A DNA stretch of 64,000 nt from a virus (Duplodnaviria; Heunggongvirae; Uroviricota; Caudoviricetes), in IMG/VR virus record IMGVR_UViG_2548876947_000004. One strand, given 5' to 3'. A program made the position numbers and the translations under genes. This document shows, one piece after another, positions 53,925 to 54,631 of this stretch (position 1 is its first letter; every line of letters starts with the position of its first letter). The notes beneath the pieces were generated by a model. The model was not told where the DNA came from, ran no database searches, and saw only the letters and a program-made list of their open reading frames with translations.

Positions 53925-53946
53925 AATCCCGCCAATTGGCGGGATT
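53925..53946. terminator. Bidirectional terminator
   Basis: AATCCCGCC-AATT-GGCGGGATT hairpin; AAAAAA on the plus 5' side gives a strong T-run for the minus strand. Confidence 0.65.
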
Positions 53947-54026
53947 ATTACCTGCTTGCATTCGATGTTCATCGCATTCAGCTATAAATTACAATCCAGC
54001 TATAAAATATCTCTCAAAATTATTCA

Positions 54027-54461
54027 CTAATATCTCTCAATAGTAATCCCTGTAAGTTTAATTTCAATTCTCTTTATATTTAGGATTTTTTTGATGACTT
54101 TAGTCAATGTTTTTTTATTGTGACATTTCTTACATGTTATATTGGCTTTAAATGTAAAATCATTACTATCTTGAACTCGCTCGATCTTGTATACGTTATA
54201 TTCAAGGTTTGATGATTCATTACACGTTGGACATAAATAGCTATCACACTCAATAGGTATCATTCTATTTACAGCAGTATACATCATTCCGCAGACAGGA
54301 CATGAGCATTTAGTATGTATTTCTCCTTTACCACGAAGATTCCACCCAGAATTAACATCCTGTTCAATAGTCAATACCATGACATCACTATCATAGTGAG
54401 TTTTACAATAATGGCATAATACATCATGAATTATGATCGCCTGTTTTGACGAAGAGTTCAT
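54027..54461 (-). CDS. Cys-rich zinc-ribbon protein (AT-rich moron)
   Basis: 144 aa with four CxxC pairs (CHYC, CPVC, CPTC, CKKC); AAAGGAAA SD; AT-rich and terminator-flanked. Confidence 0.55.
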   Translation of the reverse strand: MNSSSKQAIIIHDVLCHYCKTHYDSDVMVLTIEQDVNSGWNLRGKGEIHTKCSCPVCGMMYTAVNRMIPIECDSYLCPTCNESSNLEYNVYKIERVQDSNDFTFKANITCKKCHNKKTLTKVIKKILNIKRIEIKLTGITIERY

Positions 54462-54631
54462 TTATATTTCCTTTTAAGCTTTTGCTAAAGACCACTAGTA
54501 TTACCATTTAACATTCTCACTTATTACAGCATGCGAGAAATATTTAATTATAAAATCAGGCACAAATCCGTCTATAGAATAAACAAATTCTGTGCCTTAA
54601 AAATAGCTAATTAAGCTTACACTAATACTAT

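What the first reader, a model, noticed from the sequence alone, without database searches (positions are those of the whole stretch)
53925..54630. AT-rich zinc-ribbon moron between the ssb region and the DarA operon
A 144-aa protein with four CxxC pairs is encoded in a roughly 700-bp stretch far more AT-rich than its neighbours. It has a good SD and a strong terminator on its own strand, which is the layout of an independently expressed accessory gene. Small Zn-ribbon proteins in such positions are often anti-defence or host-takeover factors.
Basis: partly seen in the sequence, partly recalled or inferred. Interest (0 to 1): 0.4.

Follow-up and report, generated by a model that had tools for sequence, protein, structure and literature searches.

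The report
Rare two-zinc cargo gene in P1 phage-plasmid
A rare, AT-rich inserted gene in a P1-type phage-plasmid encodes a small two-zinc protein of an undescribed family whose module also forms the tail of TIR immune proteins, so it probably acts in phage-host conflict, but its function is untested.

Summary
A 144-aa ORF (54461->54027, minus strand) with four CxxC pairs lies in the most AT-rich stretch of the 64-kb window (GC 0.31 vs 0.475, z = -4.0).

The window is a P1-family phage-plasmid. The ORF sits on a 682-bp cassette (53947-54628) in the variable ssb-hxr interval. P1 has IS1+isaB there, P7 has nmpC, and SJ46 has nothing.

The cassette is rare. It occurs in 8 of 483 PLSDB plasmids that carry the hxr/ddrB backbone (intact in 2), and in 0 of 22 related phage records.

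The "own terminator" is really the backbone hxr/dar-operon terminator. The cassette was inserted between the hxr stop codon and that hairpin, so read-through from hxr is likely. The layout does not show independent expression.

The protein has no curated family. A full HMMER scan finds about 205 distant clusters, mostly stand-alone proteins of about 145 aa. At least 7 carry the module as the C-terminal domain of ThsB-like TIR proteins (43% identity, E = 1e-33). Others are fused to EAD11, LRR or HTH domains.

The AF2 model (pLDDT 86) shows two tandem CxxC-hairpin-CxxC-helix units. No catalytic residues are conserved.

Best reading: a non-enzymatic binding module from immune/conflict systems. 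Whether it acts for defence or against it is unresolved.

The parts
53947..54628 (.). AT-rich cargo cassette (682 bp, GC 0.306) inserted between the hxr stop codon and the hxr/dar terminator hairpin
   Evidence: BLAST against P1, P7, SJ46 and CP116245. Junction sequences and alignment with SJ46 and MH422554. GC and z-score.
54027..54461 (-). CDS of the 144-aa two-zinc protein (four CxxC pairs); stand-alone member of an uncharacterised family; end coordinate includes the stop codon
   Evidence: ORF. Homologues and invariant Cys. AF2 pLDDT 86.2. 5 synonymous vs 3 non-synonymous differences from the CP116245 allele.
54468..54473 (-). Shine-Dalgarno AAGGAA, 7 nt upstream of the ATG
   Evidence: Read directly from the sequence.
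54547..54574 (-). Candidate sigma-70 promoter TAGACG-16-TATAAT. Consensus match only. No C1 operator and no late-promoter -22 box in the cassette.
   Evidence: 5 sites found, 5.0 expected by chance. C1 operator scan. Late-promoter scan.
53918..53946 (-). Backbone intrinsic terminator (9-bp GC-rich stem, loop AAUU, U-run) of the hxr/dar transcription unit. It now also ends the cassette gene, and it follows the convergent isaA.
   Evidence: fold -16 kcal/mol, z = -3.45. The same hairpin abuts the hxr stop in SJ46 and MH422554.
54632..54940 (-). hxr (102 aa), last backbone gene of the dar region, immediately upstream of the cassette on the same strand
   Evidence: phrog_2292, E = 3.7e-55.
53124..53921 (+). 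isaA-like gene, convergent left neighbour. The mechanical ORF starts at TTG 53007; homology starts near ATG 53124.
   Evidence: (phrog_2326 matches residues 44-304).
53976..54051 (.). Two short tandem duplications in the gene's 3' end and 3' UTR: 16 nt x2 at 53976-54009 and 23 nt x2 at 54006-54051. Significance unknown.

Best explanation
Shown:
- A 682-bp AT-rich cassette (53947-54628) was acquired horizontally into the non-essential, highly variable ssb-hxr cargo interval of a P1-family phage-plasmid.
- It sits exactly between the hxr stop codon and the hairpin that terminates the hxr/dar transcription unit.
- Its single gene encodes a 144-aa protein built from two tandem units (CxxC, beta-hairpin, CxxC, helix) plus a conserved C-terminal beta-hairpin.
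- The eight cysteines are the only conserved polar residues.
- It is a stand-alone member of an undescribed family. In other members the same module is the C-terminal domain of ThsB-like TIR proteins, or is fused to EAD11, LRR or HTH domains.

Inferred:
- Each unit binds one Zn through four Cys.
- The protein has no catalytic activity.
- The module is a recognition or assembly domain of prokaryotic immune/conflict systems.
- In the prophage it is transcribed by read-through from hxr, and possibly from its own sigma-70 promoter, which has no C1 operator.
- Because it lacks an effector domain, it must act by stoichiometric binding to a protein or nucleic acid.

Which side it serves is unresolved. 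I lean towards a prophage-expressed exclusion or defence-side factor (about 0.4) over an anti-defence decoy (about 0.25).
For: Cargo status:
- Homology to P1 stops at 53921 and resumes at 54629.
- The empty site in SJ46 and MH422554 shows the hairpin directly abutting hxr.
- Relatives carry other cargo at the same site: IS1+isaB, nmpC, dGTPase-like genes, and others.
- The cassette is in 8 of 483 plasmids and 6 of 480 genomes that carry the backbone.
- CRISPRi scores every P1 gene from ssb to hdf as non-essential (PMC10695390).

Foreign origin:
- GC 0.306, z = -4.0.
- Nearest homologues are 55-64% identical, in a Providencia island next to an integrase and in a CbeA/DUF4942 element.

Family and fusions:
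- A profile of only the 4 closest sequences finds 205 clusters at E <= 1e-3.
- TIR_2 lies N-terminal in P0012, P0040, P0100, P0109, P0112, P0124 and P0131. EAD11, LRR and HTH occur in others.
- The window protein is 43% identical over 119 aa to the C-terminal domain of TIR protein P0012, E = 1e-33.
- EADs are described as coupling adaptors of conflict systems (PMC7159879).

Structure:
- AF2 pLDDT 86.2, pTM 0.70, topology bb-a-bb-a-bb.
- The two halves align in register, E = 1.3e-5.
- Only Cys, W40, G44, P69 and F104 are conserved. Helix 2 is basic. Median pI is 8.6.

Leaning to the defence side:
- No family member in 50,697 phage genomes, even with a family consensus at E <= 0.1.
- No C1 operator in the cassette, against 14 elsewhere in the window.
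- The same element carries other AT-rich host-benefit cargo, including a SIR2_2 defence-like gene.
- Some homologues sit next to PemK-like or trypsin-like genes.
Against: - No experiment or known relative gives a function.
- No curated family matches. DUF7836 scores 21.8 bits against a 26.7 cut-off, and PADLOC and NCBIfam have nothing for the module.
- There is no conserved partner or effector gene across the nine homologue contexts examined.
- A stand-alone sensor-like domain has no obvious way to defend on its own.
- The gene is interrupted by an ISVsa5 transposon in 6 of 8 plasmids that carry it, so it is dispensable.
- Its position at the tail of the Dar anti-restriction operon fits a counter-defence role equally well.
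- Zinc binding and the fold come from a prediction only.
- The fold search gives only weak similarity to ribosomal protein eS24 (E >= 2.5e-3, TM 0.40-0.46 normalised to the query).
Confidence: 0.55

Rival explanations
1. Anti-defence decoy. The stand-alone module is co-transcribed with the Dar anti-restriction operon. It would neutralise a host immune protein by mimicking its sensor or assembly domain, for example a TIR-module protein, either by capping oligomers or by sequestering the trigger.
For: - It lies inside the hxr/dar transcription unit with no intervening terminator.
- It is homologous to the non-TIR domain of TIR proteins.
- It has no effector domain and no conserved catalytic residues.
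Against: - No family member was found in 50,697 phage genomes.
- No close relative was found in IMG/VR with the patterns tried.
- Stand-alone forms far outnumber the TIR fusions and occur on non-phage contigs.
- No cognate TIR-module protein was found in E. coli records; the only hits there were the cassette itself.
- The cassette is in only about 1.5% of P1-like elements, and most copies are disrupted.
Confidence: 0.25
2. Nucleic-acid-binding regulator. A small basic zinc protein that binds DNA or RNA and tunes phage or host gene expression or translation, with no direct immune role.
For: - Basic helix 2 with conserved K/R at positions 112, 115, 116 and 121; median pI 8.6.
- Weak but consistent fold similarity to the RNA-binding ribosomal protein eS24.
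- One member is fused to an XRE-type HTH and one to an L7/L12 C-terminal-like domain.
Against: - The fold matches are marginal (E >= 2.5e-3, TM about 0.4).
- The commonest fusion partner is TIR, not a DNA-binding domain.
- There is no conserved target site or partner gene.
Confidence: 0.15
3. Functionless passenger. A recently acquired foreign gene that is silent, for example silenced as AT-rich DNA, and on its way to being lost.
For: - It is rare, and disrupted by a transposon in 6 of 8 plasmids.
- Its composition is extremely foreign.
- The promoter is unproven.
Against: - The ORF is intact, with a conserved start and a good SD.
- All eight Cys and the C-terminal hairpin are conserved down to 55% identity.
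- There are 5 synonymous and 3 non-synonymous differences between alleles.
- Cluster P0001, 99% identical, has 34 member sequences.
Confidence: 0.1
4. Antitoxin-like partner of a toxin, suggested by the PemK/MazF-like gene downstream of the Providencia homologue.
For: In Providencia the homologue is followed, 150 bp later on the same strand, by a PemK_toxin-like gene (E = 7.7e-6).
Against: - There is no toxin gene next to it in the window or in the other contexts examined.
- A 150-bp gap is atypical for a type II toxin-antitoxin pair.
- Disruption of the gene is tolerated.
Confidence: 0.03

Closest known systems
C-terminal domain of uncharacterised prokaryotic TIR proteins with a ThsB-like TIR (P0012, P0040, P0100, P0109, P0112, P0124, P0131)
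   Same: - Homologous module: 43% identity over 119 aa, E = 1e-33 to P0012.
- The same four CxxC pairs and the same W40, G44, P69 and F104 positions.
   Different: - The window protein has no TIR or any other effector domain.
- The TIR-fused proteins are themselves uncharacterised, single-gene, metagenomic sequences.
- PADLOC matches only their TIR part.
Phage morons and cargo hotspots of P1-like phage-plasmids (IS1/isaB in P1, nmpC in P7, resistance-gene insertions next to ssb)
   Same: - Same locus between ssb and hxr.
- Foreign composition, rare among relatives, in a non-essential region.
   Different: - It brings no terminator of its own and uses the backbone's.
- Its promoter is unproven.
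- Its cargo protein belongs to no described family.
Pfam DUF7836 and generic zinc-ribbon models (Zn_ribbon_8, Zn_ribbon_4, Lar_restr_allev)
   Same: CPxCG-type knuckle pairs give weak matches. DUF7836 matches 16 of 74 family members, best E = 1.4e-6.
   Different: - The window protein is below every cut-off: DUF7836 21.8 vs 26.7 bits; Lar 10.3 vs 28.6 bits, E = 0.91.
- The matches cover only about 35 residues, spanning the junction of the two units.
- The predicted geometry is knuckle plus helix, not two hairpin knuckles.
Ribosomal protein eS24 (S24e) alpha/beta fold
   Same: It is the best structural match in the PDB, consistent over more than 40 entries: TM 0.40-0.46 normalised to the query, up to 0.66 normalised to the archaeal S24e target.
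   Different: - E-values are only 2.5e-3 to 0.08, with 5-16% identity.
- eS24 has no Cys4 zinc sites.
- This is most likely a generic two-layer alpha/beta resemblance.
P1 Dar anti-restriction operon (hdf, darA, ddrA, ddrB, then hxr)
   Same: It is adjacent, on the same strand, and upstream of the same terminator, so co-transcription is plausible.
   Different: It is not conserved with the operon (8 of 483 plasmids). It has no homology to any Dar protein. Packaging into the virion is untested.

Membership tests
Moron (independently transcribed accessory gene in a phage genome) | Absent from most close relatives at the same locus | tested here: met
   Present in 0 of 22 phage records, 8 of 483 plasmids and 6 of 480 E. 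coli genomes that carry the hxr/ddrB backbone.
Moron (independently transcribed accessory gene in a phage genome) | Composition different from the surrounding genome | tested here: met
   GC 0.306 vs 0.475, z = -4.0, the lowest in the window.
Moron (independently transcribed accessory gene in a phage genome) | Own promoter and own terminator flanking the gene | tested here: not met
   The terminator is the backbone's hxr terminator, present at the empty site in SJ46 and MH422554. The promoter is a consensus match no commoner than in shuffles. No terminator lies between hxr and the gene.
Classical zinc ribbon / Pfam DUF7836 | Score above the Pfam gathering threshold | tested here: not met
   DUF7836 21.8 bits vs a 26.7 cut-off. 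All other zinc-ribbon models score lower.
Classical zinc ribbon / Pfam DUF7836 | Two CxxC knuckles, each at a beta-hairpin turn, binding one Zn | tested here: inconclusive
   Four conserved CxxC pairs are present. In the AF2 model, pairs 2 and 4 sit at helix N-termini (helices at residues 59-71 and 111-127), which is treble-clef-like. Model coordinates and metal content were not available.
Undescribed two-zinc module family defined here (stand-alone and TIR/EAD11/LRR/HTH-fused) | Significant full-length profile match with the four CxxC pairs, W40, G44, P69 and F104 aligned | tested here: met
   The profile was seeded from the window protein, so it defines the family: 205 clusters at E <= 1e-3 and 119 at <= 1e-10. 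Invariant columns. Pairwise E = 1e-33 to P0012 and 3e-22 to P0071.
Thoeris ThsB / TIR defence proteins | Presence of a TIR domain | tested here: not met
   No TIR match in the 144-aa protein. Only distant relatives carry TIR.
Lar-type restriction alleviation proteins (PF14354 / TIGR03655) | Match to the family model above its cut-off | tested here: not met
   PF14354 E = 0.91, 10.3 bits vs 28.6. No NCBIfam hit.
Dar anti-restriction system of P1 | Conserved with the dar operon across P1-family genomes | tested here: not met
   hxr/ddrB is in 483 plasmids and the cassette in 8.
Dar anti-restriction system of P1 | Packaged into the virion and protects incoming DNA from type I restriction | not testable with these tools
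   Needs virion proteomics and plating on restricting hosts.
Type II toxin-antitoxin pair | Tightly linked toxin gene in the same operon | tested here: not met
   There is no toxin-like ORF in the cassette. Only the Providencia homologue has a PemK-like neighbour, 150 bp away.

The most novel reading that the evidence does not exclude
The two-zinc module is a previously unrecognised immune recognition or assembly domain shared by TIR, EAD11 and LRR conflict proteins. The P1-borne stand-alone copy would be a functional minimal conflict factor: either a new single-protein exclusion system expressed from the prophage, or a new anti-defence decoy riding on the Dar operon transcript.
Probability: 0.3. 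Interest if true: 0.7.

Novelty: new variant of a known kind. Interest (0 to 1): 0.45.

Why it matters
P1-like phage-plasmids occur in about 9% of complete E. coli genomes (480 of 5,426), and their ssb-hxr interval is a slot where cargo is swapped.

This cargo gene belongs to a family that no library describes. It gives a tractable E. coli/P1 entry point to a module that elsewhere is welded to TIR immune domains.

If the module proves to be a sensor, assembly domain or decoy, that would add a new part to the bacterial TIR immunity toolkit. It would also show how prophages borrow such parts.

If the gene proves inert, the result is still a clean example of how a cassette can slip between a gene and its terminator and so look like an independent transcription unit.

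Tried and rejected
- **Curated family search.** Pfam, PHROGs, NCBIfam, PADLOC and PDB sequence searches with the protein or a profile gave only sub-threshold zinc-knuckle pattern matches.
- **First AF2 run.** With 4 sequences the model was unusable (pLDDT 39). The 74-sequence alignment fixed this.
- **Fold search.** PDB gave only weak eS24 similarity and BFVD gave nothing credible. I do not treat the protein as an eS24 relative.
- **The search for related loci.** With the 4-sequence alignment no relative was found in GTDB species genomes or IMG/VR.
- **Conserved gene neighbour.** I looked across nine homologue contexts and found none.
- **C1 operator or Lpa late promoter in the cassette.** None found. 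A weak AAGTGAGAA motif has 3 mismatches to the late-promoter -22 box and was rejected.
- **Rfam scan of 53700-54800.** Only below-threshold hits, all centred on the terminator hairpin.
- **Terminal inverted repeats or target duplications.** None convincing. The short similarity between 54572-54585 and the hxr 3' end (54628-54641) may be chance in AT-rich DNA.
- **Antitoxin reading.** Rejected for lack of a linked toxin.
- **NJ tree of the module.** TIR fusions appear scattered in four or more places, but the tree is star-like and has no bootstrap, so it is only a hint.

Full report
**What is there**

The window is a P1-family (Punavirus) phage-plasmid. Around the finding lie these genes:
- lyz, 51716-52273 (-)
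- ssb, 52442-52930 (+), with its C1 operator at 52406-52422
- an isaA-like gene ending at 53921 (+)
- the 144-aa ORF, 54027-54461 (-)
- hxr, 54632-54940 (-)
- ddrB, 54930-57917 (-)

The ORF starts at an ATG preceded by AAGGAA with 7-nt spacing. It has four CxxC pairs. GC falls to 0.29-0.34 across it, against 0.45-0.50 on both sides. As a 682-bp block it is 0.306 against a window mean of 0.475 (z = -4.0), the lowest value in the 64 kb.

**Boundaries and layout**

BLAST against P1 shows homology ending at the isaA stop (53921) and resuming at 54629, three bases before the hxr stop codon. P1 carries IS1 plus isaB in that gap.

In Salmonella phage SJ46 and in MH422554, neither of which has cargo next to hxr, the same hairpin (AAATCCCGCCGAyTGGCGGGATTT) directly abuts the hxr stop codon. 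In MH422554 the gene on the other side of it is not isaA.

On the minus strand the hairpin is followed by a U-run and folds at -16 kcal/mol (z = -3.45). It is therefore the terminator of the hxr/dar transcription unit.

The cassette proper is 53947-54628, and it was inserted between hxr and that terminator. No terminator-like site lies between hxr and the gene. Read-through from hxr and ddrB is therefore the simplest route to expression. In P1 these genes lie downstream of the late promoter LPdar.

A TAGACG-16-TATAAT site at 54574..54547 could serve as the gene's own promoter. However, such matches are no more frequent here than in shuffled sequence (5 found, 5.0 expected). The cassette has no C1 operator, against 14 elsewhere in the window and 0.38 expected by chance. 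It also has no late-promoter -22 box.

**Distribution**

- The 706 bp of the finding have no megablast match in 50,697 phage records.
- They match 8 PLSDB plasmids and 6 of 5,426 complete E. coli genomes, all P1-like elements.
- The adjacent hxr/ddrB backbone is in 483 plasmids and 480 genomes.
- Only 2 plasmids carry the gene intact: CP116245 and MN510447. There a DUF2829 gene is also inserted between ssb and isaA.
- In the other six plasmids an ISVsa5-bounded transposon carrying cueO splits the gene near codon 72.
- Relatives carry other cargo in the same interval: nmpC in P7, dGTPase-like genes plus a 122-aa ORF in 673R5, a 364-aa ORF in MH422554, a 95-aa ORF in Ro157c2YLVW, and nothing in SJ46.
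- CRISPRi scores every P1 gene from ssb to hdf as non-essential (PMC10695390).
- Resistance genes in P1-like phage-plasmids have been mapped next to ssb (PMC9600943).

This is a cargo hotspot and the gene is rare cargo. It is not a backbone gene.

**The protein**

- No curated library has a family for it. The best Pfam hit is DUF7836 at 21.8 bits against a 26.7-bit cut-off. PHROGs, NCBIfam, PADLOC and PDB sequence searches give nothing significant.
- The word-indexed search of 5.8 billion proteins finds three clusters. One is 99% identical with 34 members. One is a 64%-identical metagenomic protein in a CbeA/DUF4942 element. One is a 55%-identical Providencia rettgeri protein lying between a P4-type integrase and a PemK-like gene.
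- A full HMMER scan of 1.84 billion representatives, using a profile of only those close sequences, finds 205 clusters at E <= 1e-3 and 119 at <= 1e-10.
- Most hits are stand-alone proteins of about 145 aa. Nearly all of the roughly 300-aa members carry an N-terminal TIR_2 domain (P0012, P0040, P0100, P0109, P0112, P0124, P0131). P0040's TIR matches a PADLOC ThsB model at E = 1.3e-23.
- Other members are fused to EAD11 (P0071), LRR (P0023), an XRE-type HTH (P0058), or an L7/L12 C-terminal-like domain (P0015).
- The window protein is 43% identical over 119 residues to the C-terminal domain of TIR protein P0012 (E = 1e-33), and 29% identical over 138 residues to the EAD11 fusion (E = 3e-22).
- Kaur et al. 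(PMC7159879) describe EADs as coupling adaptors that recruit effector or signalling domains in conflict systems.
- The module is always C-terminal. An unbootstrapped NJ tree scatters the TIR fusions among stand-alone forms.

**Structure**

With 74 aligned sequences, AF2 gives pLDDT 86.2 and pTM 0.70. The topology is hairpin (25-48), helix (59-71), hairpin (86-110), helix (111-127), hairpin (129-143).

CxxC pairs 1 and 3 precede the hairpins. Pairs 2 and 4 sit at the helix N-termini. Each half is therefore knuckle, hairpin, knuckle, helix, which is closer to a treble clef than to a classical ribbon. The two halves align in register (hhalign E = 1.3e-5).

Across the family only the eight Cys, W40, G44, P69 and F104 are conserved. 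No acidic, His or Ser positions suggest catalysis. Helix 2 carries conserved basic positions, and the median pI is 8.6.

Foldseek finds only weak, though consistent, similarity to ribosomal protein eS24, and nothing credible among viral models.

**Interpretation**

*Shown:* a rare, foreign, single-gene cassette in a cargo hotspot, placed inside the hxr transcription unit. It encodes a non-enzymatic module, predicted to bind two zinc ions, that is homologous to the C-terminal domain of TIR, EAD11 and LRR proteins.

*Inferred:* the module is a recognition or assembly part of immune/conflict systems, and the stand-alone protein works by binding.

The direction is open.

For a defence or exclusion role:
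- The family is absent from 50,697 phage genomes, even with a family consensus query at E <= 0.1.
- Stand-alone members sit among IS elements and integrases on non-phage contigs.
- There is no C1 operator in the cassette.
- The same element carries other AT-rich host-benefit cargo, including a SIR2_2 gene.

For a counter-defence role:
- It is co-oriented with the Dar operon.
- It has no effector domain.

Against any strong role:
- Most carriers have the gene disrupted.
- No partner gene is conserved.

I put about 0.55 on 'conflict-system binding module carried as cargo'. Within that I lean to the defence side (about 0.4) over a decoy (about 0.25). A plain nucleic-acid-binding regulator gets about 0.15 and an inert passenger about 0.1.

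**Verdict**

Its argument for independent expression is wrong, because the terminator is borrowed. Its functional guess is plausible but not favoured.

The gene is a new, uncharacterised variant of a familiar thing: phage-plasmid cargo. The unexpected and testable link is to TIR immune proteins.

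Noticed in passing
window 38235-39542 (+): An AT-rich 435-aa ORF with a SIR2_2 domain (Pfam E = 8.6e-24). Its best PADLOC matches are PDC-S25 (E = 9.5e-27) and ThsA-like SIR2 models. It looks like a defence-type cargo gene in another low-GC island of the same element (minimum GC 0.31).
   Followed up: partly
window 44068-47600 (-): A chaperone-usher fimbrial cluster lies in and next to a third low-GC island (46781-48500, minimum GC 0.31): an 813-aa usher-like ORF, a 170-aa fimbrial-subunit-like ORF and a 107-aa small regulator-like ORF. This is unusual cargo for a P1-like element. The identities are judged from the translations only.
   Followed up: no
L004 and L005 (CP057359, CP116983), and four other plasmids: An ISVsa5 (IS4-family) transposon carrying cueO is inserted in the zinc-protein gene near window position 54247 (codon ~72). 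In CP116983 an IS1A also lies in the remaining 5' part. The cassette is therefore itself a target for further cargo.
   Followed up: partly
window 53976-54051: Two short tandem duplications (16 nt x2 and 23 nt x2) span the stop codon and 3' UTR of the gene. Their origin and meaning are unknown.
   Followed up: no
window 54572-54585 vs 54628-54641, and 54510-54523 vs 54638-54651: Sequences inside the cassette's upstream region resemble the hxr 3' end (86% over 14 nt each). This could be microhomology used at insertion, or chance in AT-rich DNA.
   Followed up: no
window 53007-53921 (+): The mechanical isaA ORF starts at TTG 53007 (304 aa). The PHROG match and annotated relatives begin near residue 40-44 (ATG 53124). 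In CP116245, MN510447 and Ro157c2YLVW a DUF2829 gene is inserted at window position ~53130-53137, between ssb and isaA. This is a second insertion point in the same hotspot.
   Followed up: partly
L007 1474-2495 (Providencia rettgeri contig): The 55%-identical homologue lies between a P4-type integrase (408 aa) and a 144-aa PemK/MazF-like gene, next to prophage tail genes. In L020 a homologue follows a trypsin-like 257-aa gene. Effector-like neighbours occur in 2 of 6 stand-alone contexts examined.
   Followed up: partly
L022 1750-3318 and 9001-9870 (JGI 3300028917 contig): A TIR-module fusion (P0109) sits as a solo gene among IS21 copies and an integrase. It is about 6 kb from a separate TIR-WD40 protein, in a setting that resembles a conflict island.
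   Followed up: no
window, 14 sites (for example 3482, 19119, 34563, 52406): The P1 C1-repressor operator consensus ATTGCTCTAATAAATTT matches 14 times at <= 3 mismatches (0.38 expected). This confirms a P1-type immunity circuit in this element.
   Followed up: partly
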